Positions 14,600 to 64,000 of a DNA stretch of 64,000 nucleotides are shown one piece after another; position 1 is the first letter of the stretch, and every line of letters starts with the position of its first letter. The translations under genes and the position numbers were made by a program. Source of the DNA: Armatimonadota bacterium (GTDB taxonomy: Bacteria; Armatimonadota; Fervidibacteria; Fervidibacterales; Thermosaccharophagaceae); assembly GCA_025062195.1 (NCBI GenBank), contig JANXAS010000006.1, positions 13,072 through 77,071 of the forward strand, written 5' to 3'. Below the pieces are notes generated by a model. That model ran no database searches and was not told the DNA's origin. It worked only from the letters and a program-made list of their open reading frames with translations.

Positions 14600-14624
14600 G
14601 TGCGACTTTGAGGCTCTATACCGA

Positions 14625-14745: not shown

Positions 14746-14809
14746 CCGAATCAAATGACCAACACAGATACTCTTTTCCAAGATGCGCAAACTGTCAGGT
14801 GGGTTGCTG

Positions 14810-15388
14810 ATGCGCAGATTGAGGGCAGCTAATCAAAAGATGAATGCAGTGAGCAAAGCAACCGATTATTGCATGCGCCTGTTATCATACAGGCAGTATA
14901 GCAAGGGCGAGCTTGAAGAGAAGTTAAGGAAGCGCGGCTATGGCGAACGGACGATAATGATGGTCATCAACAGGCTGAATGAACTTGGTCTGGTTGATGA
15001 CGAGGGGTTGAGCAAGGGTCTTGTTCAGTCAGCTATTGAAAGGCAGAATCGCGGCAGACATGCCGTGATAGCCGAAATGAGAAGGCTTAAACTGCCAGAG
15101 GATTGCATCCAGAGCGCCATTGAGATGTTTGACCTGGAGACGGAAATTAATATTGCTGTAAAGTTGATGCGCAAATGGCTCTCTGATGAGCATTGTAAAT
15201 ATGTGAGCGCCTCACTGTGCGATAGCGGTGAGAATCAAAAGGTGAGGCAACTAATCTTGCGCCTATTGAGGCGCGGCTTCAGCCATGAAGCCATAATGGG
15301 AGCGTTAAGGCGCATAGGATGCAAGCCCCCTGTATATAGCGATGCTGACGAAGTGTTTCCCTTGCAGAGCGCCATAGAGAACACTTAA
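14810..15388 (+). CDS. recX: Recombination regulator RecX
   Basis: RecX-like three-repeat helical pattern (DYCMRLLSYRQYSKGELEEKLRKRGY ...), located directly after recA. I prefer the start at 14810 because AGGTGGG lies 6 nt upstream. The track start is 14783. Confidence 0.8.
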   Translation: MRRLRAANQKMNAVSKATDYCMRLLSYRQYSKGELEEKLRKRGYGERTIMMVINRLNELGLVDDEGLSKGLVQSAIERQNRGRHAVIAEMRRLKLPEDCIQSAIEMFDLETEINIAVKLMRKWLSDEHCKYVSASLCDSGENQKVRQLILRLLRRGFSHEAIMGALRRIGCKPPVYSDADEVFPLQSAIENT

Positions 15389-15468
15389 AGGGCAATCCTG
15401 TCAAGCTCCAAAAGCTGCCCTCAAGCTGAGGCATCAGCTGCCCCCAAGAGAAAGGTGGTGAGAAATTC

Positions 15469-17007: not shown

Positions 17008-17078
17008 TTCAAACTTTTACGGATGAATAAGGGCGCAACACGAGCAACTGATGCATCACAGATTGGAGTGAAGGTGGC

Positions 17079-17885
17079 GTGCGCATATTGTGCGTTGGCG
17101 ATGTAGTTGGACAGGTTGGAAGGAGGGTGATCAAAAGGCTCCTTCCAACGCTGATAAAGGTGAAGAATGTTGACTTCGTCATAGCAAACGGCGAGAACGC
17201 TGCTGGCGGACTGGGCATAACGCCTCAAGTTGCCGATGAGCTATTTAATGCCGGTGTGAATTGCATAACCACAGGCAATCACATATGGCGTCACAAGGAG
17301 ATAATTGAGCGTGTTGCAAAAGACGCAAGGCTGCTCCGCCCAGCAAACTATCCACCAGATACGGTTGGGTGCGGCTGGACGATATTGCGTCCAAACAGGC
17401 GCGTCAAAACGGAGAGGGCTGTATGTGTTGTTTGTATGCTCGGATTGATATTCATGGAAGCGCTTGACTGCCCATTCCGAACGATTGACAGGATATTGGA
17501 AGAAGTGAATGACCTTACGAATGTCATCGTGGTTGACTTTCACGCTGAGGCAACCTCAGAGAAGCAAGCATTTGCAAGATATGTAGATGGGAGGGTGAGC
17601 TTGGTCTTTGGGACACACACACATGTCATGACTGCCGATGAGTGCATTTTGCCGAATGGCACAGCTTACATTACCGATGTCGGGATGACCGGTCCTATAG
17701 ACAGCGTGATCGGAATGAAAGCCGAAGCGATTATTCACAGGCTCGTGACGAAGCTGCCGGTGAAGTTTGAGCCAGCTTCAGGAAGGGGGATGCTTTCAGC
17801 CGTCCTTGTTGATGTGGATGATTCAACCGGTAAGGCAAGGTCAATAGAACGAATCTCGGTTCAAGAGCCCGAGATGGTTGAATGA
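17079..17885 (+). CDS. ymdB: YmdB-family metallophosphoesterase (2',3'-cyclic-nucleotide phosphodiesterase-like)
   Basis: Motifs MRILCVGDVVG, ANGENAAGG, TTGNHIW, DFHAEATSEK and GTHTHV are present. It follows rny as in Bacillus. Confidence 0.9.
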   Translation: MRILCVGDVVGQVGRRVIKRLLPTLIKVKNVDFVIANGENAAGGLGITPQVADELFNAGVNCITTGNHIWRHKEIIERVAKDARLLRPANYPPDTVGCGWTILRPNRRVKTERAVCVVCMLGLIFMEALDCPFRTIDRILEEVNDLTNVIVVDFHAEATSEKQAFARYVDGRVSLVFGTHTHVMTADECILPNGTAYITDVGMTGPIDSVIGMKAEAIIHRLVTKLPVKFEPASGRGMLSAVLVDVDDSTGKARSIERISVQEPEMVE

Positions 17886-18102
17886 CAACACCATGATGGA
17901 TTGCCACTTGCGCATGTGACATATCCAAGTTAAATTGTGTGATGGCACAATCTTGGCAGTGAGATGGCTAACGAGTTGGCAAGTTAGTTTGCCTTTAAAC
18001 CCAATCAAAGTGAGGCACAAAATTGTGCACAAGGAAGGACACAGTGAAAGGAACGGAAGAGGGCGCTACAGGAGGGCAACGAAGCACAGGGGCGGATCGG
18101 AC

Positions 18103-18399
18103 ATGAACTACAGGGAGCGTCACAGGCAAGGGCATACAGAGGTCCTTAGAGTCTCATCAAAATCAAAGCCAAACACTGTTGCCGGTGCTGTCGCTGGCGT
18201 CATCCGTGAAAAGGGGCGGGTTGAGATACAGACTATAGGTGCCGGCGCGCTCAATCAAGCCATAAAAGCAATAGCTATAGCGAGGGGTTTCCTTGCGCCA
18301 TCCGGAATTGACATCGTGTGCATACCGTCATTTTGCGATGTCATCATAGACGGGCAAGAGAGGACTGCCATAAGGCTTGTCGTTGAGGCGCGCACATAA
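18103..18399 (+). CDS. spoVS: SpoVS-family protein
   Basis: LRVSSKSKPNTVAGAVAGVIREKGRVEIQTIGAGALNQAIKAIAIARGFLAPSGIDIVCIPSF matches SpoVS almost end to end. The start is trimmed to the ATG at 18103. The track ORF from 17935 adds an implausible 56-aa leader. Confidence 0.85.
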   Translation: MNYRERHRQGHTEVLRVSSKSKPNTVAGAVAGVIREKGRVEIQTIGAGALNQAIKAIAIARGFLAPSGIDIVCIPSFCDVIIDGQERTAIRLVVEART

Positions 18400-38224: not shown

Positions 38225-41200
38225 TCACTGCTTTTCGCCCTTGAAATACCGATATTGGAAGGTGGCGGAATTGCCCGCAGCATCAAAGATGCGCACATCA
38301 AGCGTGTGTTTTCCGGATGGCAATCTATCAACTGGTATGATGAGTTCCTCCTCACGGGAGTCAAAGCTCCCATCGGCACACATCAGCGGATACCACTTAT
38401 CTCCAACTTTAAACTCCGCCCTCAAGACCCATGTGGTCTCATCGCGCACAAATATACGCTGTGGCGGCGCACCGAATGTTTCGTCGCCTACGCCTTTTGC
38501 ATCCTTTACCTCCGTCATCTTTGGCGAGACGACAATCGGCGGCGTATTATCAATGATAAAGCTCGGTGAGACGGCTTCCGCCTTCATCTGATTCAGTGGG
38601 TTGCTTAACACGTCTGAAGCCACAACCTTGAGCACATACCTACCATCGGGTAATTGTGTTGTGTCCCATTCAAGCTTTTGCTTCCGCCAAGTCTGCTCCG
38701 TCGCCGCGCTTTCGGATGTAACCTGTTCAACCAACTCTTCGGAGACCTCTGGCATAGGCGGTGTCTCAACAACTATGCCCGTTTCACCCTTCTGCAGCTC
38801 TGGCCGTTGTCCATCACCTTCTTGTTTAACACCCTCCTGAGCCGATGTATCCTTAGAGCTTTCACTCTCAGCTTTTTTGCCCTTCCTCTCCGGCTTGGCT
38901 TCCTTAACTCGTTGCCAGGTCTTTCCGCCATCACTTGAGCAGTAAATCTCAAATTCAAGTTCGTCACCATTGGCGTCGTATGCCTTCCACTCAACCGTCA
39001 CAGTCTTTGCGATTATAGCGCCCGCAGCCGGCGAGACAAACTGAACGCTTGGCGCAACATTGATGGGCGTGAAAGAAACCACAGCTCCGTAAAGCTTTGG
39101 ATGCGCATTGTTGTTGCTCTCGACTTTTATGCGCCATTGTAACGCTCTTGCTGGTGGAGATTTGATGAGAAAGCCATCCTCCGACAGCTCAGCCCTTTCC
39201 CAATCAGACCATGTCTCATCCGGCAACTCGCTGTTGCCAGAGCGCGATTCAACAACTACAACTGCATCATCGCCGGCATCCATAAGGCACTTCAGGATAC
39301 GCCAATTGGCAATGCTTGGGAGCACAAACGCCGGCGAGATGTATTCGCCAATACCAGATCTATACAGCTTTACAACCTTGCCACTGATTGACATGACGCT
39401 GAGCAAGCCATCGGCGCTTGAAACAAATTGCGCTGCAAACTCGTTGCTAAATTTGAGTGCCTGCCCGTGTGCGCTATCCATATCAACTAAGTAAATAGCG
39501 TGGGGCGTAATTCCGCTCACAATGAGCGTGCCATCGCCTGAGGGATAAATGTCAGCGATGTGCCTTGAGGGTGTATCGCAAAGCAATTTGCACTCGCCGC
39601 TGCCGGATAGGCGAAATATCTCGCCATGCGGCGTTGTGCCAATGTAAACATCGCCATCAGGAGAAGCATACAGTGAGGATATTGCGCCCCTCTTTGTCTC
39701 CCAAATTAGCCTGTAACTTCCATCCGGCAATATGCGCCAAAGTTTCCCCATAGGGTAAGTGCCAGCGTATATTGAGCCATCATTGCCAACTGAAAGCGCC
39801 ATCACATGTTCATCAAGCGCCTCAAGGAGAAGCTTTGTCCGACCATCTTTTGTGACTTGAAACACTCTCCCCGGAAGACCAGTCCCAATGAGCACATCAC
39901 CTGAGCGAGATTGGCGCATTGCCCATATGTGCTTGCAATCAATTTTGAGCCAGACGCCCGGCGTAACTGAACCATCATTGTCGGAGACATTCATTGAGTA
40001 GACTTCGCCATTCGGTGATGTGCCGATGAGCAGCCTATCACCGAGCAGCAGCAAAGCCGTCGGGATGCAATGCAGCCCATCTTTGCCGTGAAAGCTGCAA
40101 ATCGCCTTTGCAGAACCGTTTGAGATGGAGTAGACAATTCCGCTTTGCCACGAACACGCATACAAAGTCCCGTTATCAAAAATTGCGGCTCGCCATATTC
40201 CGCCGTCGCCAAGCTCAACTAAGCTGCTCGCTTTCAAACCGATTCTCACTGAACCGTCGCTTGCCACAAATGCGCCATCGCACTTGCCCCTCATCAACTC
40301 CTTTTGCGACTTAAGTTCAATCTTGCGAGCCTTAAGAGCTCCCTCAGGGAGATGCTGCATCCTATCGCCTTCTGTTGCTCTTTGAGCCGACTCATCCTGA
40401 ATCTTCTCCTCATCACCTTGCTCATCACTCGCTTCACCCGTGAGCTCACCCGCTGGTTCTTCCTCCTCCCCACCCTGAAGTGATAGCGCAAACATGCCCG
40501 ACCACAACTTGGCAAGCACCTTCAATGTCATATTGTTTGAGCCACAGATAGCCTCGCCCTGTATGCCGAGCAACTGACCAAGCTGCTCAAAAAGCTCAAG
40601 TGCGCCCTCCTCTTGACGCATGCGAGCCCTCTCAAGCTCTTGCGATGGTTGCGGCACATCCTTTGTATACTCAGGCTCAATCCTTATGCTCAACATTTTC
40701 ATCCCGCGAACAACATACCCAACATCAATGCACTTTGAGAGTTCGCCATAGCCAACATGAAACATGTCATCGCCCAGGGCATTCATCTCCTCAAGTATCT
40801 TAAAAGGCATATTGTGAGCAAGTCTTCCGTTGACCCATGCATCCATGCTCGGCAACTGAAGACACACAAACAGCTGGTCATTTCTCTCCCTGTTCACCAG
40901 CCCCTCAATGAGCTGCGAGAGCGAGTTTGGGCGGCGCTGCAATATACCAAGACGGTTGCGCAAACGCTGTGCATCAGCACCGCCAGAGACGCCGATTCGC
41001 AGCGTGCAAACTCGCCTTACATCCGGCAGACATAACTTGATTTCCTTTTGCTCCCAACCACCATGAGCTCGGCGCATGTGTATTGTGAGCTTCACTTCGT
41101 CCTTGGGGCGAGCCACGCGCTTATCGCAAACGACACGCTCAATGAAGGCTTCCTGTCTCTTGCTTGTATTCTCGAGCTTTACAAGGACGCTTTTAACATT

Positions 41201-42553
41201 CACCCTCTCAAATCTGTTCTCCTCAAGCAGCAGGAGCGTTTGAATTAGCTCGGCAGTTGAAGGCATTGAATAACCCAAGAGCTTTTCAATCAAGCTCGCC
41301 CTGCTCTCAACGAATGCGTTCTGGCGCTTTATCTTCGGCAAACCATCAGCGCTTATCTCGTAGGATACGAATGTTGTCCCGCTGGGAATACCGCTTGTGA
41401 CATTCGTGAATGCGAGCGAAATGAGCAGATCAACCAGCAGCACAGTCAGCTCACGGTGCCTGAAAACGGATACATTGAAGAGGCGCTTAACACCCCTGTC
41501 ATTATCACTCACAGAGATGCCCAACTGGAGCATCTTCGGGCGCAACCCAACTATGCCAGACATGGCAAATGCCCTGTCCTGAGTGAAAGCACCAACTACG
41601 CTGAGCGGTGATGCGAGTTTGATGGATATGTATTGGCTCGGTAATACGCCATGCACATATGCAGTTGTGAGCGGTATGCTCGTCTCACCAGCGAGAAGGA
41701 ATGGATGCCCAAACGCCAAAATGACATTCCCCTTGCGATATGTTAGAGCCCCTATCGCTGTTAGTTCAATATCACCGCAAGTTAGCTGTGCTCCGACTGC
41801 CGCGCCAGGCTCAAGCGAGACCTTGAGTTTTGGTGCATTGACTGGCTTACCCGGAGATAGCATGGGGATGAGAGCATATGGTTGAAGGAGTTTCTTCAAA
41901 CGCTCAAGCGAAGCCTTCGGCATGCCATGAACCATTAACGGTGTTGCCACAGGGACAAGCAATATCTCATCCTGCGAAACTCTTATCTCACCTTCATCCG
42001 GTAAGCAAGTCCTCAACCTTACCGACTTTATACGCCTTCCTGAAAGGAGTATGCTTCCGCTTACAGGCTTTAACCTCACAGTCTTTGGCATGCTCGCAGC
42101 ACCAGTTGCAGACGCAGCGAAGGTTGACTCAACCATGCTTTTTATCGGCGTCACACCAGCTATCGGTGCTTTTGAGAAAGCCCATGCATATGAAATGGCT
42201 CCAGCAAGCTTTCCAGCAATGTAAACTGGAGAGCCACTCATACCGGCGGCAACTCCCCAGCCATTTGAAACGACTGGACCACCATCAATCCGTATGAGTA
42301 TTAAGTCCATGCCAAAGTCAACGCCTTTGAGCACACCTATGACTGTCACCGGGAGGGTGCTCACCTTAGTGCCATTAAATGTGCTCTTGCAGTAGCCGCG
42401 CATGCCCGTGGATATGCGTTCTACCGGAATGTATTCATTTGGTGGGAGCAACTGATGGAGTTCTTTGGCACAGGTCAATCCACAAGCTGCGGCAAGAAAA
42501 ATCAACACCATAGTGGCGAATCTAATGCGCCAAAGAGCTACAACGCTACTCAT
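38225..42553 (-). CDS. Giant secreted protein: SpoIVB-like peptidase S55 domain, beta-propeller-like repeats and Ig-like C-terminal domains, 1442 aa
   Basis: Signal peptide. AAGMSGSPVYIAGKLAGAISYAW resembles the SpoIVB catalytic-serine region, and ILAFGHPFLLAGETSIPLTTAYV is S55-like. An acidic linker (GGEEEEPAGELTGEASDEQGDEE) follows. Repeats of the form G..G.VY...... come next (LLIGTSPNGEVYSM, VLIGTGLPGRVFQV, IYAGTYPMGKLWRI, VYIGTTPHGEIFRL). The C-terminus reads ...LPDGRYVLKVVASD...IIDNTPP. Confidence 0.75.
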   Translation of the reverse strand: MSSVVALWRIRFATMVLIFLAAACGLTCAKELHQLLPPNEYIPVERISTGMRGYCKSTFNGTKVSTLPVTVIGVLKGVDFGMDLILIRIDGGPVVSNGWGVAAGMSGSPVYIAGKLAGAISYAWAFSKAPIAGVTPIKSMVESTFAASATGAASMPKTVRLKPVSGSILLSGRRIKSVRLRTCLPDEGEIRVSQDEILLVPVATPLMVHGMPKASLERLKKLLQPYALIPMLSPGKPVNAPKLKVSLEPGAAVGAQLTCGDIELTAIGALTYRKGNVILAFGHPFLLAGETSIPLTTAYVHGVLPSQYISIKLASPLSVVGAFTQDRAFAMSGIVGLRPKMLQLGISVSDNDRGVKRLFNVSVFRHRELTVLLVDLLISLAFTNVTSGIPSGTTFVSYEISADGLPKIKRQNAFVESRASLIEKLLGYSMPSTAELIQTLLLLEENRFERVNVKSVLVKLENTSKRQEAFIERVVCDKRVARPKDEVKLTIHMRRAHGGWEQKEIKLCLPDVRRVCTLRIGVSGGADAQRLRNRLGILQRRPNSLSQLIEGLVNRERNDQLFVCLQLPSMDAWVNGRLAHNMPFKILEEMNALGDDMFHVGYGELSKCIDVGYVVRGMKMLSIRIEPEYTKDVPQPSQELERARMRQEEGALELFEQLGQLLGIQGEAICGSNNMTLKVLAKLWSGMFALSLQGGEEEEPAGELTGEASDEQGDEEKIQDESAQRATEGDRMQHLPEGALKARKIELKSQKELMRGKCDGAFVASDGSVRIGLKASSLVELGDGGIWRAAIFDNGTLYACSWQSGIVYSISNGSAKAICSFHGKDGLHCIPTALLLLGDRLLIGTSPNGEVYSMNVSDNDGSVTPGVWLKIDCKHIWAMRQSRSGDVLIGTGLPGRVFQVTKDGRTKLLLEALDEHVMALSVGNDGSIYAGTYPMGKLWRILPDGSYRLIWETKRGAISSLYASPDGDVYIGTTPHGEIFRLSGSGECKLLCDTPSRHIADIYPSGDGTLIVSGITPHAIYLVDMDSAHGQALKFSNEFAAQFVSSADGLLSVMSISGKVVKLYRSGIGEYISPAFVLPSIANWRILKCLMDAGDDAVVVVESRSGNSELPDETWSDWERAELSEDGFLIKSPPARALQWRIKVESNNNAHPKLYGAVVSFTPINVAPSVQFVSPAAGAIIAKTVTVEWKAYDANGDELEFEIYCSSDGGKTWQRVKEAKPERKGKKAESESSKDTSAQEGVKQEGDGQRPELQKGETGIVVETPPMPEVSEELVEQVTSESAATEQTWRKQKLEWDTTQLPDGRYVLKVVASDVLSNPLNQMKAEAVSPSFIIDNTPPIVVSPKMTEVKDAKGVGDETFGAPPQRIFVRDETTWVLRAEFKVGDKWYPLMCADGSFDSREEELIIPVDRLPSGKHTLDVRIFDAAGNSATFQYRYFKGEKQ

Positions 42554-47954: not shown

Positions 47955-48029
47955 TGGAGCTGGCGGCGGGATTTGAACCCGCGACCTGGGGATTACAAAT
48001 CCCCCGCTCTGCCGCTGAGCTACACCAGC
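47955..48029 (-). tRNA. tRNA-Thr (anticodon UGU), CCA encoded
   Basis: Hand-folded cloverleaf from the reverse complement: GCTGGTG TA GCTC AGCGGCA GAGC G GGGGA TTTGTAA TCCCC AGGTC GCGGG TTCAAAT CCCGC CGCCAGC T CCA. All four stems pair, with one G-U in the acceptor stem. Confidence 0.9.
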
Positions 48030-55357: not shown

Positions 55358-55594
55358 GTGAGTTACGCGGTTGAACATAGAAGCAGCTGTTAAGCTGCCA
55401 GCATCATTCGCTTTTGAATAACACACCGTAAACGACATATCATTCATAAGTGGCTTTAGCCACGAAAACTTATTGGGTGATAAAAGCTCTAACTTGCGGA
55501 TTTACAATTTGCGCCGTTTGCACTATTTGTTTTTGTGGTGGCTTATTGTGGGCTACTGTCAGCACTTACAAGATAATGCAGCTGCGTAACTCCC
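55358..55594 (-). repeat. Copy E (long, ~237 nt variant) of the structured repeat family
   Basis: The 3' part on the minus strand, AATGATGCTGGCAGCTTAACAGCTGCTTCTATGTTCAACCGCGTAACTCAC, matches copies B and D1. A GTGGC-TAAA-GCCAC hairpin replaces hairpin 1. A matching 5' arm GGGAGTTACGCAGCTG lies at 55579..55594. The extent of the element is an inference. Confidence 0.5.
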
Positions 55595-55671: not shown

Positions 55672-56055
55672 GTGAAAGGAACTATACACGAACTCACAAT
55701 CCAAACCGATCACAAAGAGCAACTGGTGGACATAACTGATGCACTACAAAAACTCATAACTGATGCTGGGTTGGAAGAAGGATTCGTGTGCATCTATGTG
55801 CCTCACACAACTGCGGCTGTGAGCATCCACCGAGATATCTCAGGGGAACACACACCAAAGCTTAACGAGCTGTTACGGCAATTCAATCACATAGTTAGCA
55901 ACTCGCCCGAGTATACCAAAGCTGCTTTGGTCGCACCAACTGAAGTTATTCTTGTTAAGGACGGGAAGTTGCTAATGGGTGATGACCAACGCATCATATT
56001 CTACGAGTTTGACGGGCCAAGGGAAAGGAGAATATATGTCTACTTTTCCCCATAA
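55672..56055 (+). CDS. yjbQ: YjbQ/UPF0047-family protein (secondary thiamine-phosphate synthase-like)
   Basis: ...ITDALQKLITDAGLEEGFVCIYVPHTTAAVSI... is typical of UPF0047. The start is moved to the in-frame GTG at 55672 (GTGAGGT just upstream), giving the usual ~127 aa. The track start is 55609. Confidence 0.8.
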   Translation: MKGTIHELTIQTDHKEQLVDITDALQKLITDAGLEEGFVCIYVPHTTAAVSIHRDISGEHTPKLNELLRQFNHIVSNSPEYTKAALVAPTEVILVKDGKLLMGDDQRIIFYEFDGPRERRIYVYFSP

Positions 56056-56240
56056 ACTTGGCAATATTTTGGCATTGCGAGCCAACTTAGACGAACATAT
56101 GTATGCAGCATAATGTATAAAGAGCATTTTGATCATGAAAGCATGCTATAAGCTTTAGCCATAGCCTTTTATGATTCTTATTATGAACGCCACCTTCAAA
56201 GGACGGAAGAGGCTTGTTGATGCTCTTTACCGTAAAGCTG

Positions 56241-56359
56241 TAGAAGTTACACAGATGACGTTACTTAGTGAGGGTTAACGACAGCCCGCCAAGCACTATT
56301 AAAAGCAAATGATGTGGGCAGCTTGACAGCTATCCCTATACTCATGTGCGTAACTTTTA
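56241..56359 (+). repeat. Copy D1 of the structured repeat family (first of a tandem pair)
   Basis: Arms AGAAGTTACACAGATG / CATGTGCGTAACTTTT; centre ...CAAATGATGTGGGCAGCTTGACAGCTATCCC.... Confidence 0.65.
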
Positions 56360-56364
56360 TGTTA

Positions 56365-56487
56365 AAGGACCTGCGCAGTTGGCGTTGTTTCATGGGGGCA
56401 GATGACGGTCTGCTCGAAAAATCATCGCAAAAAGTTGCTGGTTCGGGCAGATTTCATCCGCTCCCACATTCAACCGCGTAACTCCTA
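56365..56487 (+). repeat. Copy D2 of the structured repeat family (second of a tandem pair)
   Basis: Arms AGGACCTGCGCAGTTG / CAACCGCGTAACTCCT pair at 13/16 positions. Hairpin 1 is GGCAGA-TGACGG-TCTGCT, whose stem differs from copy B by compensatory changes. Confidence 0.7.
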
Positions 56488-57180
56488 TGTTATTGGCGGA
56501 TAATTTTCCTGGGACATGATACAGGCTAAAGCCAGCAGTCATTGACGAAATTTTCTGGGTGCAACCTTTAGAGGGCGAAAATCTCTCACAGGATGAGTTT
56601 AAGCTTGCCGATTTTAGGACACATTTCCCGATGAGTGAAATCTTTCGGCAAGGCAGCAATTATGCCTTACAATTTGTTGCGGCAGTAACCTTGCCCTCCC
56701 ACGCTGCTACGAATTCGGTGATCATTCGTTTTCGCCATTAACGGCTGGCTAAAGCCAGGGGGATGGATCACCATGAAGCAATAGATTTTTGGGCGAAGAG
56801 TTCTATTACGAGAATCGCTCTTTACTACGAACTTTGTTGTTTGAGTTTGTAGTTAGCCACGAAGCGAAAGCGGGGTGGCGAAAAAATTAGTGCGTAGTGC
56901 GATGTAGAGAGTGCAGCCCTGTTTTGCGCTTTGCACTCCGCATTAGCACTTTGTATTTTGTCCGCACTTCTCACTCAGTTACGGCACTCCGCTTAGCTCC
57001 GTGCCTAACTGCGAACCAACAGACTTTAAAGTAAGGAGCGCCGAGAATTTTTTAAAAACGGCATTAATTGTGGCATCTTTGCGGGCAAGCGGTGAGATAA
57101 AAGCCATGTTGTTCGTCAAAAGTTGGCACATTTGTGGAAGTGCTGCAGAAAAATAAGAGTTGGTGGGGGGTGTAAAATTA

Positions 57181-58743
57181 ATGCAAGGGAGGGAGCAAGC
57201 ATCCCTGGAAGAAATTTGGGAAAAATCTCTGAAATTGTTGCAAGAGCGTGTCAGTGGTGCCGCATACAAAAGTTGGATGCGCTCAATGCGCCCAACACGA
57301 TTGCAAGATAGTATATTGATAATCACAGTTCCAAATCAGTTTACTAAAGATTTGCTCGAATCAAGATATAAAGATTCAATAGAAAAGGCAATCAGCGAGG
57401 TGATTGGAAGACCTGTCAGCATTCAATTTTGCCTCGGCATAACGCAACTTGAACTGCCCTTGAACTTTTCTGGGGAAGATTTTGGGAAAAAAACGGAAAA
57501 GCTTCAACGGGAGGGAATGGAAATGGAGGAAAAAAACCAACAACATGAGAAAACTAATGATAAAACTCCGCAAGATTTTGAGGCTGTAGTTGGCAGATCT
57601 TCAGGAAAGGAATTGAGGGAACATGTTTTATCAATCTCAACTCACTATCACTCAAATGGTTCATTTGATGATATACCAACAGATTTCAGTTCAATACCAT
57701 TAAATCCAAAGTATACATTTGAACGATTTGTTGTAGGAAGAAGCAATTCGCTAAGTCATGCTGCTGCGTGGAGTGTGGCTCATCACCCTGCGGAAAAGTA
57801 TAACCCGTTGTTCATCTACGGGGGTGTTGGTCTGGGCAAAACACATTTAATGCACGCTATTGGGCACAAAGTTAGGGAAATATATCCGAACCTTCGTGTA
57901 GCGTATGTCTCTGGCGAGACATTTCTCTTCCATGTGGTAACTGCTATAAGGGAGGATAAAACGGCAGAATTCAGGCGAACATACAGAGGCGTTGATGTAT
58001 GGCTCGTTGATGATATTCAGTTTATTGCCTCCGCTGAAAGGACAGAGGTTGAATTCTTTCACATATTTAACGAACTTTATGACACAAATAGGCAGATTGT
58101 CATTTGCAGTGATCGCCCGCCTAAGGAATTAAACCTCGGTGAAGCAAGACTGCGTTCAAGATTTGAATGGGGATTGATAACCGAAATCACCCCGCCAGAC
58201 CTTGAACACAGAATTGCAATTTTGCAAAGAAAAGCCCGGGAGGAAAATGTCAATCTTCCCGAGGATGTTGCGTTATTTATGGCACAATCAATACAAACTA
58301 ACATTAGAGTCCTTGAGGGAGCGTTAACGAGGGTGATAGCATATGCATCGTTGATTGGAAAGCCAATCACACTTGAAATAGCAAGGGAGGGATTGAGGGA
58401 TTATTGTGATTTAAGGCAATACAACATAGAACTAAGGCACATACTCAAAGTTGTGGCAGAACACTTCAACATTACAGTTGAAGATCTGCGCAGCGCGAAG
58501 CGAAATAGAAGCCTTGTTCAACCGAGGCATATCGCCATGTATTTAGCCAGGGAAATGACCACAGAGTCGCTATCAGACATAGGCAGAGCTTTTGGAAAAG
58601 ACCACACATCGGTTATATATGCTTATGAAAAAATTCGGGAAGAAATTCACACTAATCAGGCTGCTGCAAGGCTTATTGATGAATTAAAAGCAAGGGTGGA
58701 GCATACAGCACAGGCTGAATCACTTCAGCAACAGAAGCTGTGA
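57181..58743 (+). CDS. dnaA: Chromosomal replication initiator DnaA
   Basis: N-terminal domain I (IWEKSLKLLQERVSGAAYKSWM), AAA+ Walker A GGVGLGKTHL, Walker B WLVDDIQF, and domain IV (...HIAMYLAREMTTESLSDIGRAFGKDHTSVIYAYEKI). The start is trimmed to the ATG at 57181. Confidence 0.95.
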   Translation: MQGREQASLEEIWEKSLKLLQERVSGAAYKSWMRSMRPTRLQDSILIITVPNQFTKDLLESRYKDSIEKAISEVIGRPVSIQFCLGITQLELPLNFSGEDFGKKTEKLQREGMEMEEKNQQHEKTNDKTPQDFEAVVGRSSGKELREHVLSISTHYHSNGSFDDIPTDFSSIPLNPKYTFERFVVGRSNSLSHAAAWSVAHHPAEKYNPLFIYGGVGLGKTHLMHAIGHKVREIYPNLRVAYVSGETFLFHVVTAIREDKTAEFRRTYRGVDVWLVDDIQFIASAERTEVEFFHIFNELYDTNRQIVICSDRPPKELNLGEARLRSRFEWGLITEITPPDLEHRIAILQRKAREENVNLPEDVALFMAQSIQTNIRVLEGALTRVIAYASLIGKPITLEIAREGLRDYCDLRQYNIELRHILKVVAEHFNITVEDLRSAKRNRSLVQPRHIAMYLAREMTTESLSDIGRAFGKDHTSVIYAYEKIREEIHTNQAAARLIDELKARVEHTAQAESLQQQKL

Positions 58744-58749
58744 AAAACT

Positions 58750-59135
58750 TGTGGAAAAGATGTGAATAAATTGTGGAAAAGGTGTTAAAAAACTGTGAGG
58801 AGGATGTGAAAATTGGTTAAAAAATACCGCTATTTTTAATCAAGCTGTGGAAAAGTTGTGGAATTTCCACAGTTGACAAGTTCAGATTTTGTGAATTAGT
58901 TTGTGAAAAAAATGTGGATAACTTGTGAAATGGGTGTGGAATACTCATTGGCACAACTTATTACGGAAAGTTATTCACAGGCTGTGGAAAACTGATCAAA
59001 GTTTTCCACAGGTGGTTGTGGAAAACTCGAGGGAATTTCTCCGGCAAAACTCGGGAAAAAACACAGAAACCAAATTTTTTTCACAATTTTCACACTGCTA
59101 ATAATAACAACAATAAGACGGAGTAATAATTAAAG
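58750..59135. other. oriC candidate: DnaA-box cluster plus AT-rich unwinding region
   Basis: There are six perfect TGTGGAAAA/TTTTCCACA boxes (58750, 58772, 58846, 58983, 59002 reverse, 59017) and one perfect TGTGGATAA (58913). A palindromic TGTGGAATTTCCACA lies at 58857..58871. TGTGGAATA (58935), TTATTCACA (58971) and several TGTGAAWWW half-strength sites are also present. An AT-rich tract CTAATAATAACAACAATAAGACGGAGTAATAATTAAAG follows at about 59098..59135. Confidence 0.8.
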
Positions 59136-59244
59136 CGATGCAGTTAGCGTGAGACGGATAGAATTTCACGGAGTTGTAAAATTTGAAGTTGACAGAAGTC
59201 AGGCTGTGTAATATTCAAAACGCTCAAACGGGAGGGTGAAGAAG

Positions 59245-60402
59245 ATGAAGGTCGTATGCAACAGCTCAATGCTGGTTGACGGAGTGCGTGCAGCAGCACG
59301 AGTGGTTAGTCAAAGAGCAACATTGCCAATACTGCAAAACATAAAAATTGAGGCAGTGCTGGGTGAAGAGGGCGGAAAAATGCTGATAACCGGAACTGAT
59401 ATGAACACATGCGTGAAAAAAGCTATACCGGTAGAAGAGATTGAAGTTGAAGGAGCAACAACAGTGCCAGCAAAGCTTTTCCTGGAACTTGTAGAACAAT
59501 TCAGAGAGGCAAAACGAATCTCATTAGAGTTAAGAGGCAATCTTTTATTCCTTCGGGATGAAGACTCGGAATCCGAACATTCGCTTCCCACTGTTCCAGC
59601 TGATGAGTTCCCACTTATTCCGGAGTTGGCAAAGCCTCAAGTATGTGAGATTAGTCAAAGCATGCTGCGCAAAATGATAAGACGATCAGCATTTGCTGCT
59701 GCTACTGAAGAGAGTGCCGGAGTTTGCACAGGTATACTTGTTGAGATTGAGGGTGATAAACTCACATTAGTAGCAACAGATACACATCGCATGTCCGTTG
59801 TCCGAACAAGCATTCCGACTCCTATGCAAGAGCGGGTTGAGGCAATAATTCCTGCCACAGTTATGCGAGAGATACACCGTCTGCTTAGCGATGCTGATGA
59901 ACCTGTCAAGCTTGCTATTGATGTCACGCACATGCAGATTGAAACAGGGGATATGCAATGCATAACCCTCAAGATGCAGGGTCAATTCCCAAACTATAAG
60001 CGAGTTATACCAACGCAATTTGCGCGCAGGTTAGTAATTGACACAAAAGAATTCATCACCAAAATAAAGCGAGTTGCGCTGCACGCAAACGAAGATATTC
60101 CGCAAATCGTGATGAGAATCAGCAAAGATAAATTGATTATCGTTGCCGAGGATCCAGAAGCCGGGCGAGGAAAGGGGAAGGAAGTGTTGTTACCGATTGA
60201 ATATGAGGGAGAACCGATAATCATCGCATTCAATGCCGATTTCATGGCTGAATTTCTATCAAATGTTGAAAGCCCAACAACACTCGTGGAAATGAATGAA
60301 AATCGCCAACCAGTTGTTATGCGACCAACCTTGGCAAGTGAAGGTGAAGAGTGGATTTACATTGCTATGCCAATGCAACCGCCTGAAGAAACAGAATTTT
60401 GA
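59245..60402 (+). CDS. dnaN: DNA polymerase III beta sliding clamp
   Basis: ~385 aa with three-domain length and periodicity. The N-terminus MKVVCNSSMLVDGVRAAARVVSQRATLPILQNIKIEA is typical. It lies between dnaA and recF. The ATG at 59245 sits 8 nt after GGAGGG; the track uses the GTG at 59236. Confidence 0.95.
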   Translation: MKVVCNSSMLVDGVRAAARVVSQRATLPILQNIKIEAVLGEEGGKMLITGTDMNTCVKKAIPVEEIEVEGATTVPAKLFLELVEQFREAKRISLELRGNLLFLRDEDSESEHSLPTVPADEFPLIPELAKPQVCEISQSMLRKMIRRSAFAAATEESAGVCTGILVEIEGDKLTLVATDTHRMSVVRTSIPTPMQERVEAIIPATVMREIHRLLSDADEPVKLAIDVTHMQIETGDMQCITLKMQGQFPNYKRVIPTQFARRLVIDTKEFITKIKRVALHANEDIPQIVMRISKDKLIIVAEDPEAGRGKGKEVLLPIEYEGEPIIIAFNADFMAEFLSNVESPTTLVEMNENRQPVVMRPTLASEGEEWIYIAMPMQPPEETEF

Positions 60403-60428
60403 AACCTCATAGACAGGAGTGGCAAGAT

Positions 60429-61571
60429 TTGCATATCTGCCGAATAATGGCGAGAAATTTCCGAATTTACTCAGTGATTGATATTGCTTTACCAACAGGT
60501 ATTATTGCAGTTGTAGGTGATAACGCACAAGGGAAAACCACATTTGTAGAGGCTATTGCATTTGCATTGACTGGAGAATCGCCAAGAACACACGATGACA
60601 GAGAAGTATTACAAAAAGGGGCAAAATATGCGGTAGTGAAAGTGCTTGTCAGGCTTGAAAAGGGCGAAGAACACTGGCTCGAGATCGCCATTGCGGACGG
60701 AAGGAAAAGGTGGATTATTGACGGGAAAGCGAGGCGAAAATGGGAGGAAGGATGGGCTCCATTCCATGTAGTTTACTTCATGCCACATGAGATTCAAATA
60801 GTAAGCGGAGAACCCCGTGGAAGACGAGAGTTGCTTGATAAAACGCTCTCCCATTGGAACCATAGTTATCACTTTAACTTACTGAACTACCGCCGTGCAA
60901 TATCTCATAGGAATGCTTTACTTGAGAGAATAAATCAGGAAGGCAATCTGACGAAGGAGTCAAGAGCCGAGATTGATAACTGGAACATGCAGGTTGCAAA
61001 ATATGGCGCCAGATTGATTGGAATGAGGCTTGAATTTATCCAGCGATGGCATCCACTTGTTTGGGAATTCTTCTCGGAACTCGGCGGGGTGGGTAGAGTA
61101 GAATTGCGCTATGTTTCGTCACTTGGAGAGGACGCATTAAAACTCTACAGCAGTGGGAAAATAGAGGCATTATTGGAACGATATATTGAGTTGCTTGAAG
61201 AGGCATTACTGCGAGACATAGAAACAACAGCCACAAGCGTCGGACCTCACAGAGATGATTTGCAAATTTTGATTGATAACATGGATGTGCGAGATTACGG
61301 CTCATCTGGTCAGCAAAAACTCACGTTACTGGCTATGAAACTTTCGCTTGGCAAGCTGCATGAGCTGGAGAGAAAAATGTCATCAATAATTCTACTTGAT
61401 GATGCATTATCTCAGCTTGACAACAAGCGCCGGAGAAAATTGTTTGAAGTCATCCAAAGGTATGAGCAATGCATAATTACAATGACAAGTTTTGAGGATA
61501 TACCTCAACCTTTTAGGGATATTTGCGCTCTCTTCCAAATAGAGAGGGGTAAGGTGACAAGAATCAAATGA
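60429..61571 (+). CDS. recF: DNA replication and repair protein RecF
   Basis: NFRIY near the N-terminus, Walker A GDNAQGKTTFVEAI, signature GSSGQQKLTLLAMKL and Walker B IILLDDALSQLD. I prefer the TTG at 60429 (AGGAG 10 nt upstream); the track start is 60399. Confidence 0.9.
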   Translation: MHICRIMARNFRIYSVIDIALPTGIIAVVGDNAQGKTTFVEAIAFALTGESPRTHDDREVLQKGAKYAVVKVLVRLEKGEEHWLEIAIADGRKRWIIDGKARRKWEEGWAPFHVVYFMPHEIQIVSGEPRGRRELLDKTLSHWNHSYHFNLLNYRRAISHRNALLERINQEGNLTKESRAEIDNWNMQVAKYGARLIGMRLEFIQRWHPLVWEFFSELGGVGRVELRYVSSLGEDALKLYSSGKIEALLERYIELLEEALLRDIETTATSVGPHRDDLQILIDNMDVRDYGSSGQQKLTLLAMKLSLGKLHELERKMSSIILLDDALSQLDNKRRRKLFEVIQRYEQCIITMTSFEDIPQPFRDICALFQIERGKVTRIK

Positions 61572-62188
61572 AAGATAGATTGATATCAATAAGCGAAGTC
61601 ATAGAAGATTGGGTTAAAAGATCAAAGAAACTTAAAGGAAATGTGAATTCCGCTTCCCAGGGGAGGGACTTTGAGGAATCGAGGCAGCAACAACTCGTTT
61701 TTTCCTGTTGGGAAGAGGCGGTTGGAAAGAAGGTAGCAAGTGTTGTCACACCTTATAAGTTTGAGCGTGGAATTCTCTATGTTTGCACAGAATCATCATC
61801 ATGGGCGCAGGAAATATCCTTCATGAAAATGGAAATAATCCGAAAGATAAATGAAAAACTTGGTGGAAACTTTGTTGCTGACATATATTGTCGTATTGGA
61901 ATGCCTGGCGGTATTGCAAAGCAAAGGCGAGGTGAGAGAGAATCTAAAACGCTAATTGCAACGCAACTTGCCAAAATAAAGCTGCCAAAGGAAATTGAGC
62001 AACGCGTGAATGAAATGGTTTCGGCAATACAGAATGATGAATTAAGGGATCTGATGAGGCGTGTTTTTACGCTTCACATGAAACTCAAGTTATGGCGCCA
62101 AAGGCACGGATTAAAGCGATGTGAGAATTGTGGGGAGGTCTATAAAGCTGATGAGAAAGCCTGCCCAATTTGCTCAATAAAGGAATGA
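61568..62188 (+). CDS. DUF721 (DciA/RemB-family) protein with C-terminal zinc-ribbon extension
   Basis: WEEAVGKKVASVVTPYKFERGILYVCTESSSWAQEISFMKMEIIRKINEKLG fits DUF721. The C-terminus has CENCGEVYKADEKACPIC. It overlaps recF by 4 nt. Confidence 0.7.
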   Translation: MKDRLISISEVIEDWVKRSKKLKGNVNSASQGRDFEESRQQQLVFSCWEEAVGKKVASVVTPYKFERGILYVCTESSSWAQEISFMKMEIIRKINEKLGGNFVADIYCRIGMPGGIAKQRRGERESKTLIATQLAKIKLPKEIEQRVNEMVSAIQNDELRDLMRRVFTLHMKLKLWRQRHGLKRCENCGEVYKADEKACPICSIKE

Positions 62189-62961
62189 TTCTTGGAAGGA
62201 AGGGGTCAGATGTGAAAAGTAACGAGAAAGACTGGCAGGTTGAGGCAGAGATTAGAAACTTGCTTTTACGAGCAAATGTTGAAAGAACCCGTGGAAATTA
62301 CCAGAGGGCACTTGAGCTTGTAAAGCGTGCTTATGAACTTGCGCCTGATAACCCACAAGTCCTTGAGCTGTATGGCGACATACTCCGCGCTCGTGGTAGA
62401 CTAAAAGAAGCCTTGGAAATGTATCAGGCAGCACTTCAAAAAGTTCACCACAAACCCTCGGTTGAAGAAAAGATAGCATCGCTAACCCTTGAACTATCAG
62501 AGATAGCAAGGCAAGAGGAACTGAGAGCATGGCTGAGAGAGCATCCAGAACATCGTCCAAGAGCAAAAAATCCCACATTAGCGGTTTTAGCCTCAATGAT
62601 GATTCCGGGTGCAGGGCAAGTTTATAACGGAGATTTTGTCAAAGGATTTGCGCTATTTGGTGTTTCTCTTCTAAGTTTTGCTGGGTGGCTGACTCCAGTA
62701 TTTGATGCTTTGGGAAAAGCTGCCAAGAAATTTGGGGCAATTAGCCTTAATTCCTTGCTTGAGGTCATGCGTGATTGGAGCACGCTAAAATTGGTCTTGT
62801 TGCTCGTTGTGATGATGGTTTTCTTTTTGGCATGGACTTATGCAATTATTGAGGCGGGTATAACGGCATTTCAATTGCAAAAGGCAGCACAGCTTGAATT
62901 TGAAGAAGCTTTTAGAAGGCGTAAAGAAGAAAACCAACAATTACAAAGTTCAAAAGATTAG
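62185..62961 (+). CDS. TPR-repeat membrane protein
   Basis: N-terminal TPR units (RGNYQRALELVKRAYELAPDNPQVLELYGDILRARGRLKEALEMYQAAL), then TM helices including MMIPGAGQVYNGDFVKGFALFGV. The ATG at 62185 overlaps the upstream stop (ATGA). Confidence 0.65.
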   Translation: MILGRKGSDVKSNEKDWQVEAEIRNLLLRANVERTRGNYQRALELVKRAYELAPDNPQVLELYGDILRARGRLKEALEMYQAALQKVHHKPSVEEKIASLTLELSEIARQEELRAWLREHPEHRPRAKNPTLAVLASMMIPGAGQVYNGDFVKGFALFGVSLLSFAGWLTPVFDALGKAAKKFGAISLNSLLEVMRDWSTLKLVLLLVVMMVFFLAWTYAIIEAGITAFQLQKAAQLEFEEAFRRRKEENQQLQSSKD

Positions 62962-63003
62962 TCTTGAATATAGTAAAAACAATGGCTTTGGTGATAGCAA
63001 AAT

Positions 63004-64000
63004 ATGTTATCAAACGAAATTAATGCTATAAGGAAAATTCGCACAGAGTTGCGCGAAAGCGAGCTAATAAATCGTCATGCCCAATATATGCGGTTTTTGA
63101 GCTCGCTGATTAAAGGAGGGGATAGAGATAAAGCAATTGAAAAACTCAATCAAATGAAGCATGACTGGAGAGAACACTTGAGCAAATGCGCCGGAATTTT
63201 TCCCCCACCTCTCCCCTATAAAGGGCAGCTTATACGCCGTCATCCATCAAGATACTCAACTTCCGAATGGGTTCTTGAACTCAGCGATGGCTTGCAAATA
63301 TCATTCATCGTCCTTTCGCCCGAATTTGTGACAAAACCGCATGCTAACATTTTGCTAATACCGCCATTGGGCGAACGAACTGGCTTGGGATCCCGAAAAG
63401 AAGACACTGCCGAGCGTTATGGTAGTCTAATTGCGGACGCCGGCTATAGGGTTATTATTCCGGACTTGCCAACATTGGTATCAGTGAGCATATCAAGCGT
63501 AAAAAGATTGATATTGCTCGGGAAAACATTTATTGGCGAAATAGCCCGTGAGCTTATGGCACTGACAACATTTCTTGCCAATCAGGACAAATTTAGTGAA
63601 TTACCGACTGCAGTTATGGGTTGGGGTATATCCGGTTGGGCTGGGTTAGTATATTCAGCGCTTGATGAAAGGGTCTCTGGGGCATTTGTTTCAATGCCTT
63701 CAAGAATGACAATCCATGGATACATTCCCGGGATGTTTCGGAAATTCACATTCATTTCGGTTGGCATCCTTGTTTCTCCGAGGGTGCTTGCGATTTCTTC
63801 GTCTCTTGACAAATATCTTGAGGTTGAAGGCGATATTATCAAAGCAGCTTATGAAGTTGAGGGTGCCAAAGAAATGTATAAAAGGCTGGCATTATCTTGC
63901 CCGGATGATTTAGTCAAATGGTTTGTGGAGGAAGGTTCATTATGGGCACAAAATTCTCTTTACAGGCATAGCCTAAAAAGTGTGAGGGATATTAAGCCAA
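63004..64000 (+). CDS. Hypothetical protein, possibly alpha/beta-hydrolase-like (3' end beyond window)
   Basis: Not in the ORF track because no stop lies in the window. I translated it codon by codon from the ATG at 63004, and it is open for 332 codons to the window end (MLSNEINAIRKIRTELRES...). GWGISGWAG is only loosely nucleophile-elbow-like. The track ORFs 63582..63842(-) and 63716..63913(+) lie in other frames. Confidence 0.55.
   Translation, partial: MLSNEINAIRKIRTELRESELINRHAQYMRFLSSLIKGGDRDKAIEKLNQMKHDWREHLSKCAGIFPPPLPYKGQLIRRHPSRYSTSEWVLELSDGLQISFIVLSPEFVTKPHANILLIPPLGERTGLGSRKEDTAERYGSLIADAGYRVIIPDLPTLVSVSISSVKRLILLGKTFIGEIARELMALTTFLANQDKFSELPTAVMGWGISGWAGLVYSALDERVSGAFVSMPSRMTIHGYIPGMFRKFTFISVGILVSPRVLAISSSLDKYLEVEGDIIKAAYEVEGAKEMYKRLALSCPDDLVKWFVEEGSLWAQNSLYRHSLKSVRDIKP

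What the first reader, a model, noticed from the sequence alone, without database searches (positions are those of the whole stretch)
56056..64000. Compositional step: dnaA-oriC-dnaN-recF-DUF721 and the following genes look about 10 G+C points lower than the rest of the window
I counted G+C by hand on single 60-nt lines. Lines within CDSs left of 56 kb include 14001: 36/60, 25201: 35/60, 40021: 36/60 and 54601: 36/60. About 20 lines sampled there range from 25/60 to 36/60, with a mean near 52 %.

From dnaA rightward: 57361: 24/60, 59521: 24/60, 61801: 20/60 and 63301: 24/60. Eleven lines sampled there have a mean near 42 %, with two at 32/60.

Core replication genes with a markedly lower G+C than neighbouring housekeeping genes are unusual. 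Possible explanations are horizontal replacement of the origin module, a large compositional domain, or an assembly/binning chimera with a junction near 56-57 kb. Repeat-family copies D1 and D2 (56241..56487) tie the DNA up to ~56.5 kb to the left part. I see nothing that ties 57.2-64 kb to it.
Basis: seen in the sequence. Interest (0 to 1): 0.55.

Follow-up and report, generated by a model that had tools for sequence, protein, structure and literature searches.

The report
Conserved low-GC replication-origin gene cluster
The drop in G+C is real, but it is a bounded dip of about 9 kb over the native replication-origin genes of a hot-spring Armatimonadota bacterium; related species have the same dip and each lineage keeps it low, so it is neither a mis-assembly nor a foreign insert.

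Summary
G+C is 0.503 left of 56 kb and 0.424 from dnaA to the window end. Third-codon-position G+C (GC3) falls from 0.536±0.021 in 34 genes to 0.385±0.016 in 5.

It is not a one-way step. The public contig continues past the window, and G+C returns to about 0.51 by about 67 kb. The feature is a trough of about 9-10 kb over dnaA-oriC-dnaN-recF-dciA-TPR(-hydrolase).

The organism is a Candidatus Thermosaccharophagus (Armatimonadota) metagenome-assembled genome. Three other species of the genus, and several independent assemblies, have the same gene order across both borders and the same trough.

Silent-site divergence is equal in trough and flanks, so the block was inherited vertically with its neighbours. 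A non-stationary substitution model strongly prefers a lower G+C equilibrium inside the trough over a fading import (LRT 34.6; 40 control gene sets gave at most 2.3). Chimera and recent horizontal transfer (HGT) are rejected; an ancient relic is disfavoured.

The cause is unresolved. The shift is sharpest at gene borders and strongest in A- versus G-ending Lys/Glu/Gln codons. That favours an operon-level codon or mRNA effect over a regional DNA effect. Interest is moderate to low.

The parts
55672..56055 (+). yjbQ, the last gene upstream of the trough (GC3 0.477, about 0.05 below the flank mean). It marks the left border.
   Evidence: NCBIfam TIGR00149; Pfam YjbQ; GC3. It lies directly upstream of dnaA in every species of the genus examined.
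56056..57180 (.). Non-coding spacer of 1.1 kb, specific to this species, G+C 0.448. It carries one copy of a ~55-nt hairpin repeat (56297-56355) and a partial copy (56469-56484).
   Evidence: No similarity to relatives, whose yjbQ-dnaA gaps are about 25-300 bp. No convincing ORF or Rfam match. Repeats.
57181..58743 (+). dnaA (520 aa), the first gene of the trough, GC3 0.378.
   Evidence: TIGR00362, 530 bits. The exact protein is found on 3 public contigs. It is 84 / 71.5 / 70.5 % identical to T. tengchongensis / gerlachensis / yellowstonensis.
58744..59244 (.). oriC in the dnaA-dnaN spacer (G+C 0.36). It holds a DnaA-box cluster at 58739-59085, then two TTTTCACA boxes (59077-59094), TGC, and a TAA/CAA trinucleotide run (59099-59117).
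   Evidence: All 6 exact and 7 of the 24 one-mismatch TGTGGAAAA matches in the 64-kb window fall here. The layout is conserved in relatives. Calling the trinucleotide run DnaA-trio-like rests on memory and was not tested.
59245..60402 (+). dnaN (DNA polymerase III beta clamp), GC3 0.386.
   Evidence: TIGR00663; GC3.
60429..61571 (+). recF, GC3 0.407.
   Evidence: TIGR00611; GC3.
61568..62188 (+). dciA (DUF721 family), GC3 0.386. It overlaps the recF stop codon.
   Evidence: NCBIfam DUF721; Pfam PF05258 DciA.
62212..62961 (+). TPR-repeat protein, GC3 0.356. It is the last trough gene shared by all four species.
   Evidence: TPR families. It follows dciA in all four species.
63004..64000 (+). 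First half of an alpha/beta-hydrolase gene (646 aa) that runs to about 64944, beyond the window. GC3 is 0.417, on the right shoulder of the trough.
   Evidence: It is present in this species and T. tengchongensis and absent in the other two. TPR-hydrolase adjacency also occurs in a distant relative.

Best explanation
This is the native replication-origin gene cluster of a Candidatus Thermosaccharophagus (Armatimonadota) genome: dnaA, oriC, dnaN, recF, dciA, a TPR gene and, in this species, a hydrolase.

Shown here:
- The cluster forms a bounded trough of about 9-10 kb.
- It is inherited vertically with its neighbours.
- It is present in all four sampled species of the genus.
- In every lineage its silent sites evolve towards a lower G+C equilibrium than the flanking genes, so the trough is actively maintained rather than being left over from an import.

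Inferred, with much lower confidence (about 0.4 of the mass): the force acts on the operon's coding sequence or transcript. It would be a preference for A/U-ending codons, strongest for Lys/Glu/Gln. Such a preference would keep these mRNAs AU-rich and translated with non-preferred codons, limiting or conditioning synthesis of the initiation proteins.

A DNA-level cause is the main alternative within the same overall picture. Examples are a recombination-cold zone that escapes GC-biased gene conversion, or selection for low duplex stability around oriC.
For: Bounded trough:
- G+C and GC3 return to flank values by about 67 kb.

Conservation:
- T. tengchongensis: flank GC3 0.55-0.64 versus trough 0.41-0.48.
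- T. yellowstonensis: 0.52-0.61 versus 0.42-0.45.
- T. gerlachensis: 0.44-0.50 versus 0.37-0.44.
- Gene order is identical in all: FtsX-FtsE-PheA | AccD-GT2-pilin-YjbQ-DnaA-DnaN-RecF-DciA-TPR ... DEAD-SIS/CBS.

Co-inheritance:
- 4-fold-site identity is the same in trough and flank for every species pair: 0.507/0.522, 0.385/0.409, 0.637/0.669.
- DnaA and DnaN are 84-86 % identical to T. tengchongensis, against 77-92 % for flank proteins.
- RecA and DnaA have the same nearest relatives, and in T. tengchongensis both appear to lie on one 115,453-bp contig, judged from matching contig lengths.
- Composition-normalised tetranucleotide usage of the trough correlates with the flanks at r = 0.76. Unrelated genomes give 0.12-0.36.

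Maintenance:
- In a two-state non-stationary likelihood model on ((W,T),(Y,G)), a shifted equilibrium beats the model with the same process and a different root.
- The LRT is 34.6 on all synonymous sites, 33.4 with gamma rate variation, 15.3 on 4-fold sites only, and 23-38 leaving out any one gene.
- 40 pseudo-troughs drawn from flank genes give at most 2.3.

Operon or codon level:
- In T. yellowstonensis GC3 changes from 0.59 to 0.43 across a yjbQ-dnaA gap of at most about 130 bp.
- Non-coding spacers beside the trough (0.448, 0.455) are like other intergenic DNA (0.475), while trough GC3 (0.385) is below that.
- The G-ending fraction of Lys/Glu/Gln codons is 0.32-0.43 in the trough versus 0.60±0.08. 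In all four species this logit shift is 2-2.7 times the G/A shift at 4-fold sites, by my own calculation from the frequencies.
Against: - The likelihood model is simple. It has two states and independent sites, and its equilibrium estimates for the internal branch are implausible (0.6-0.9). The strength of the test rests on the empirical control, not on the model's realism.
- A parsimony polarisation of changes gave similar per-site rates in trough and flank and was inconclusive because the counts were small.
- The shift affects all codon classes and also GC1 and GC2. That fits a DNA-level force as well as a codon-level one.
- No expression, tRNA or recombination data are available.
- The more distant relatives sampled either lack the trough or show it only in dnaN and recF. 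Its age and origin before the genus are therefore unknown.
Confidence: 0.8

Rival explanations
1. Ancient horizontal acquisition. The origin module entered the ancestor of the genus (or earlier) from a much more AT-rich donor and has not yet ameliorated.
For: - The borders are sharp and coincide with the operon.
- Flanking synteny differs from distant Armatimonadota-like relatives, which have rpmH-rnpA-yidC | dnaA-dnaN-recF-dciA-serS and no trough.
- Silent-site divergence since the genus root is only about 0.6 substitutions per site per lineage, so a residue of a very deep initial difference is arithmetically possible.
Against: - The relic model (same process, different root composition) is rejected against a shifted equilibrium: LRT 34.6, controls at most 2.3.
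- Trough G+C tracks each species' own genome G+C instead of converging.
- It would need a donor GC3 of about 0.1-0.2.
- The nearest named outgroup hits of DnaA are Abditibacteriota and Armatimonadota at 47-49 %; unnamed relatives reach 51-65 %. No low-GC phylum is closer.
- The tetranucleotide signature remains host-like, r = 0.76.
Confidence: 0.07
2. Assembly or binning chimera with a junction near 56-57 kb.
For: Only the compositional step itself, and the fact that the source is a metagenome-assembled genome.
Against: - The same junctions occur in at least 5 assemblies from different samples and 4 species.
- G+C returns to baseline on the same contig.
- Copies of the repeat family lie on both sides, at 55361-55420 and 65241-65290.
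- Silent-site divergence is equal in trough and flanks.
Confidence: 0.01
3. Recent homologous replacement of the origin module by DNA from a related, lower-GC species.
For: Conserved flanking synteny would allow homologous recombination. T. gerlachensis has a lower-GC genome.
Against: The trough genes give the same species tree and the same pairwise silent-site distances as the flanks. They are not closer to any sampled species than the flanks are. The trough exists in all four species.
Confidence: 0.02
4. No special process. The dip is a by-product of the amino-acid make-up of DnaA, DnaN and RecF, an AT-rich oriC spacer and low expression (weak codon bias).
For: - In 44 of 46 unrelated genomes the dnaA block has slightly lower total G+C than its left flank (mean -0.018).
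- Silent sites show no consistent shift in 28 unrelated genomes.
- DnaA has a low GC2 even in GC-rich relatives.
Against: - Here the deficit is in silent sites (GC3 -0.15; 4-fold sites all below the flank minimum).
- The 40 other genes, which must include weakly expressed ones, vary little in 4-fold-site G+C (sd 0.044); GC3 of the 34 left genes has sd 0.021.
- Trough GC3 lies below flank intergenic G+C, so relaxed codon selection alone cannot produce it.
Confidence: 0.08

Closest known systems
Low-GC genomic islands acquired by horizontal transfer
   Same: A multi-gene block with sharp borders, lower G+C and GC3, and a shifted tetranucleotide signature.
   Different: It holds core replication genes. 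There is no integrase, flanking tRNA or direct repeats at the borders. It is present in all species of the genus in the same place, its divergence matches the flanks, and its substitution equilibrium is shifted rather than ameliorating.
AT-rich unwinding region of bacterial oriC in the dnaA-oriC-dnaN arrangement
   Same: The dnaA-dnaN spacer holds a dense DnaA-box cluster, followed by a box pair, a short GC spacer and an A-rich trinucleotide run. Its G+C is 0.36.
   Different: Known AT-rich origin elements span tens to a few hundred bases of non-coding DNA. Here the AT shift covers about 6-9 kb of coding sequence, at silent sites.
Chromosome-scale GC3 structuring in prokaryotes (AT-richer terminus regions; named from my own knowledge of Daubin and Perriere 2003)
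   Same: Native G+C heterogeneity at silent sites that depends on position and is not due to transfer.
   Different: That pattern is a broad gradient with the lower G+C near the terminus. This one is a sharp trough the size of an operon, at the origin.
G+C heterogeneity linked to recombination (GC-biased gene conversion; Lassalle et al. 2015, cited in PMC8495750)
   Same: A local difference in equilibrium G+C at silent sites without any change in ancestry. The silent rate in the trough is slightly higher (multiplier 1.2-1.4).
   Different: No recombination data exist here. The stronger effect in two-fold A/G-ending codons than at 4-fold sites is not what a pure conversion bias predicts.

Membership tests
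Horizontally acquired genomic island | Composition atypical for the host genome | tested here: met
   GC3 0.385 versus 0.536. Tetranucleotide r = 0.76 versus 0.90 between flank segments.
Horizontally acquired genomic island | Patchy presence among close relatives, or a different location | tested here: not met
   Same block, same neighbours, in four species and several assemblies.
Horizontally acquired genomic island | Divergence or phylogeny discordant with flanking genes | tested here: not met
   4-fold-site identity is equal in trough and flanks for all six species pairs. Amino-acid identities are in the same range. No formal trees were built.
Horizontally acquired genomic island | Mobility hallmarks at the borders (integrase, tRNA, direct repeats) | tested here: not met
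   The only tRNA is at 47958-48029. There are no long repeats and no integrase among the annotated genes.
Horizontally acquired genomic island | Composition drifting towards that of the host (amelioration) | tested here: not met
   The shifted-equilibrium model is preferred over the relic model, LRT 34.6 against controls of at most 2.3. This is a simple model.
Assembly or binning chimera | Junction not reproduced in independent assemblies | tested here: not met
   The junctions are reproduced in the window, GCA_026418135.1, L003/L004/L007, L005/L092 and L006.
Assembly or binning chimera | Break in read coverage or read pairing at the junction | not testable with these tools
dnaA-oriC-dnaN type chromosomal origin | Cluster of DnaA boxes in the spacer between dnaA and dnaN | tested here: met
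   13 boxes (6 exact) lie in 58739-59085. All exact matches in the 64-kb window are there.
dnaA-oriC-dnaN type chromosomal origin | AT-rich unwinding element with DnaA-trio-like repeats next to a box | tested here: inconclusive
   TTTTCACA x2, TGC, then TAATAATAACAACAATAAG at 59077-59117, conserved in relatives. The match to the trio motif is judged from memory only.
dnaA-oriC-dnaN type chromosomal origin | Replication actually starts here (strand-skew switch, marker-frequency peak) | tested here: inconclusive
   G-C skew follows gene orientation and flips at about 51-52 kb, not at the box cluster. No replication data are available.
Native compositional domain with its own substitution equilibrium | Present at the same place in diverged relatives and tracking each genome's own G+C | tested here: met
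Native compositional domain with its own substitution equilibrium | Equilibrium G+C at silent sites differs from the flanks | tested here: met
   Logit shift of about -1.2; robust to gamma rate variation, to leaving out any one gene and to using 4-fold sites only.

The most novel reading that the evidence does not exclude
The replication-initiation operon (dnaA, dnaN, recF, dciA, TPR) is held by selection in its own A/U-ending codon regime, above all AAA/GAA/CAA for Lys/Glu/Gln. From general knowledge, those codons are read by wobble-uridine-modified tRNAs. Synthesis of the initiation proteins would then be throttled by, or coupled to, the state of the translation machinery. That would be codon-level control of chromosome replication conserved across a thermophilic genus. 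Similar silent-site troughs seen in a few unrelated lineages would be convergent cases.
Probability: 0.12. Interest if true: 0.7.

Novelty: new variant of a known kind. Interest (0 to 1): 0.35.

Why it matters
In practice, this contig should not be split or flagged as chimeric, and the origin genes should not be called foreign. Composition-based screens for islands and chimeras would give a false positive here.

Biologically, it is a clean natural case of two adjacent sets of vertically inherited genes that keep different silent-site G+C equilibria over long divergence. That bears on the open question of what sets G+C in bacterial genomes: mutation, selection on codons or mRNA, or biased gene conversion. 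Because the block is the replication-initiation operon, it also suggests a possible link between codon usage and control of initiation. I found no description of such an operon-wide, conserved trough in three of the four paper searches run. One paper only remarks in passing that genes near oriC tend to have lower G+C (PMC8495750).

Tried and rejected
- Long repeats at the borders: none found with seed 12 and minimum length 40.
- Rfam: only one tRNA in the window, and nothing credible in 55.1-59.3 kb.
- The 1.1-kb spacer has no convincing ORF. Promoter and terminator scans were not above shuffled expectation.
- Parsimony polarisation of silent changes gave counts too small and biased to be conclusive.
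- DnaA boxes scattered through the trough genes as a cause of AT-richness: not seen. There are only two one-mismatch matches in dnaA and none in 59.1-64 kb.
- 'A general rule in bacteria': total G+C of the dnaA block is slightly low in 44 of 46 genomes. Silent-site shifts are inconsistent, however (16 of 28 negative), and the sample was chosen by peptide words of this DnaA and so is biased. Strong troughs do recur in a few lineages: Nealsonbacteria, a Bdellovibrionales MAG, Atribacterota and a Lachnospira.
- Relaxed codon selection alone is rejected because trough GC3 is below flank intergenic G+C.
Full report
**1. The observation**

G+C is 0.503 for 1-56055, 0.448 for the yjbQ-dnaA spacer and 0.424 for 57181-64000. 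None of 493 windows of 6.8 kb to the left falls below 0.483. Sliding windows and a one-step fit place the change near 55.4-57 kb.

The step is carried mainly by silent sites. GC3 is 0.536±0.021 in 34 genes left of 52 kb and 0.385±0.016 in the five genes from dnaA to the TPR gene. GC1 and GC2 show smaller drops. All six exact copies of TGTGGAAAA in the window, plus seven one-mismatch copies, lie in the dnaA-dnaN spacer at 58739-59085, which marks oriC.

**2. It is a trough, not a step**

The exact DnaA protein is on three public contigs. One is JAOABW010000001.1 of GCA_026418135.1 (144 kb). The window differs from that record at five positions in 16.8 kb, so it comes from another assembly of the same species. 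RecA and DnaA are both recorded on a contig of 221.7 kb.

Reading the public contig beyond the window end shows recovery:

| Gene (window-equivalent position) | GC3 |
|---|---|
| hydrolase (63004-64944) | 0.417 |
| PD40/tricorn-like gene (65518-67197) | 0.448 |
| DEAD/DSHCT helicase | 0.514 |
| SIS-CBS gene | 0.500 |

Overall G+C is 0.49-0.52 from about 66.5 to 73 kb. The window therefore ends inside a trough of about 9-10 kb.

**3. Origin and relatives**

A scan of one genome per species found Candidatus Thermosaccharophagus (Armatimonadota). DnaA identity is 84 % to T. tengchongensis, 72 % to T. gerlachensis and 71 % to T. yellowstonensis. Metagenome contigs add further assemblies.

All of them share this gene order: FtsX-FtsE-PheA | AccD-GT2-pilin-YjbQ-DnaA-DnaN-RecF-DciA-TPR-[hydrolase in two species]-DEAD(-)-SIS/CBS(-). 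All show the same dip:

| Species | Flank GC3 | Trough GC3 |
|---|---|---|
| T. tengchongensis | 0.55-0.64 | 0.41-0.48 |
| T. yellowstonensis | 0.52-0.61 | 0.42-0.45 |
| T. gerlachensis | 0.44-0.50 | 0.37-0.44 |

In T. yellowstonensis GC3 falls from 0.59 in yjbQ to 0.43 in dnaA across a gap of at most about 130 bp.

**4. Tests of chimera and transfer**

Identity at 4-fold sites between species is the same in trough and flanks for all six pairs, for example 0.507/0.522, 0.385/0.409 and 0.637/0.669. Protein identities are in the same range. RecA, from the left part of the window, has the same nearest relatives as DnaA. In T. tengchongensis the two appear to lie on one 115,453-bp contig, judged from matching contig lengths.

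A ~55-nt hairpin repeat has copies at 435-489, 14684-14741, 55361-55420 and 56297-56355, and also at 65241-65290 to the right of the block.

Composition-normalised tetranucleotide usage:

| Comparison | r |
|---|---|
| Flank segment versus flank segment | 0.895±0.015 |
| Trough versus flanks | 0.757 |
| Unrelated genomes of similar G+C versus flanks | 0.12-0.36 |
| Segment right of the trough versus left flanks | 0.88-0.92 |

The nearest named outgroup hits of DnaA are Abditibacteriota and Armatimonadota. Chimera and recent replacement are therefore excluded.

**5. Relic or maintained**

I fitted a two-state (G/C versus A/T) non-stationary likelihood model to synonymous third positions of residues conserved in all four species, on the tree ((W,T),(Y,G)). 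W is this window's species; T, Y and G are T. tengchongensis, yellowstonensis and gerlachensis.

- A model in which trough and flank share the same branch-specific process and differ only in root composition (a fading import) is much worse than one with a shifted equilibrium in the trough.
- The LRT is 34.6, with a logit shift of about -1.2.
- It is 33.4 with gamma rate variation, 15.3 with 4-fold sites only, and 23-38 when any single gene is left out.
- Given the shift, no difference in root composition is needed (LRT 0.07).
- Forty pseudo-troughs made from flank genes gave at most 2.3.

The model is crude and its internal-branch estimates are implausible. The empirical control is what makes the result credible. 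A parsimony count of polarised changes was inconclusive.

**6. What kind of force**

- The shift is towards A/T-ending codons in every family, so it is not a single tRNA effect.
- It is strongest for Lys/Glu/Gln. The G-ending fraction is 0.32-0.43 in the trough against 0.60±0.08 in 40 other genes.
- In all four species the logit shift (-0.7 to -1.2) is 2-2.7 times the G/A shift at 4-fold sites, by my own calculation from the frequencies.
- Trough GC3 (0.385) is below the G+C of flank intergenic DNA (0.475). The non-coding spacers beside the trough (0.448, 0.455) are not depressed.
- Relaxed codon selection alone therefore cannot explain the trough.
- A purely regional DNA effect fits the sharp gene borders and the codon-class pattern less well than an operon or transcript-level effect.
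- None of these possibilities is excluded. I rate the operon-level codon or mRNA explanation at about 0.4 and DNA-level causes (escape from biased conversion, duplex-stability selection, local mutation bias) at about 0.35 together.

**7. How general**

- Distant relatives with DnaA 43-47 % identical and G+C of 58-66 % keep dnaA-dnaN-recF-dciA but show no trough.
- A relative at 51 % identity shows a dip only in dnaN and recF.
- In 46 unrelated genomes the dnaA block has slightly lower total G+C than its left flank in 44 (mean -0.018).
- Silent-site shifts in unrelated genomes are inconsistent.
- Dips of comparable size occur in a few lineages.
- That sample was selected by peptide words of this DnaA and is biased.
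- Three of the four paper searches run looked for a description of such a conserved operon-wide trough and found none; there is only a passing remark that genes near oriC have lower G+C.

**8. Verdict**

The chimera and HGT readings are rejected. The feature is a native, conserved and maintained AT-rich codon island on the replication-origin operon. Its cause is unresolved. Interest is moderate to low: it is useful as a caution for composition-based screens and as a small natural experiment on G+C evolution.

Noticed in passing
window 435-489, 14684-14741, 55361-55420, 56297-56355 (partial copy at 56469-56484); L002 13030-13079 (window-equivalent 65241-65290): A ~55-nt intergenic repeat family with a GGCAGCT-TAAC-AGCTGCC hairpin and a conserved ...CGCGTAACTC tail, 73-88 % alike. 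It may be a small REP/MITE-like element or a terminator family. Copies occur on both sides of the trough.
   Followed up: partly
window 56056-57180: Non-coding spacer of 1.1 kb between yjbQ and dnaA that is absent from the three related species (their gaps are about 25-300 bp). Three of the five differences between the window and GCA_026418135.1 fall inside it (56232, 56475, 57000).
   Followed up: partly
window 58739-59117; L007 11479-12001; L006 10088-10617; L005 11560-12055: The repeated origin box differs between species pairs: TGTGGAAAA in this species and T. tengchongensis, TGTGAATAA/TGTGAAAAA in T. yellowstonensis and T. gerlachensis. The element TTTTCACA x2 - TGC - TAATAATAACAACAATAAG next to dnaN is nearly invariant. 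This suggests co-evolution of DnaA and its boxes.
   Followed up: partly
window 1-64000: G-C skew follows the coding strand. It flips at about 13 kb, about 22.5 kb and about 51.5 kb where gene orientation flips, not at the DnaA-box cluster at 58.8-59.1 kb. Skew alone would misplace the origin by about 7 kb.
   Followed up: no
window 13448-18399: recA-recX-rny (RNase Y)-ymdB-spoVS are adjacent. From memory, this order resembles the recA-rny-ymdB-spoVS neighbourhood of Bacillus subtilis, here in an Armatimonadota genome.
   Followed up: no
window 38225-42553 (- strand): An ORF of 1442 aa with normal flank composition and no Pfam match at E <= 1e-5.
   Followed up: no
L025, L045 (Nealsonbacteria), L082 (Bdellovibrionales), L008-L010 (Atribacterota), L013 (Lachnospira): about 10-14 kb in each locus: dnaA and dnaN (sometimes also recF) have GC3 0.09-0.14 below their neighbours in these unrelated genomes. 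Troughs of this kind therefore recur outside Armatimonadota.
   Followed up: partly
L002 10793-14986 (window-equivalent 63004-67197): The hydrolase gene is present after the TPR gene only in this species and T. tengchongensis, though TPR-hydrolase adjacency also exists in a distant relative (L093). The PD40/tricorn-like gene is present only in this species. Both have intermediate GC3 (0.417, 0.448).
   Followed up: partly
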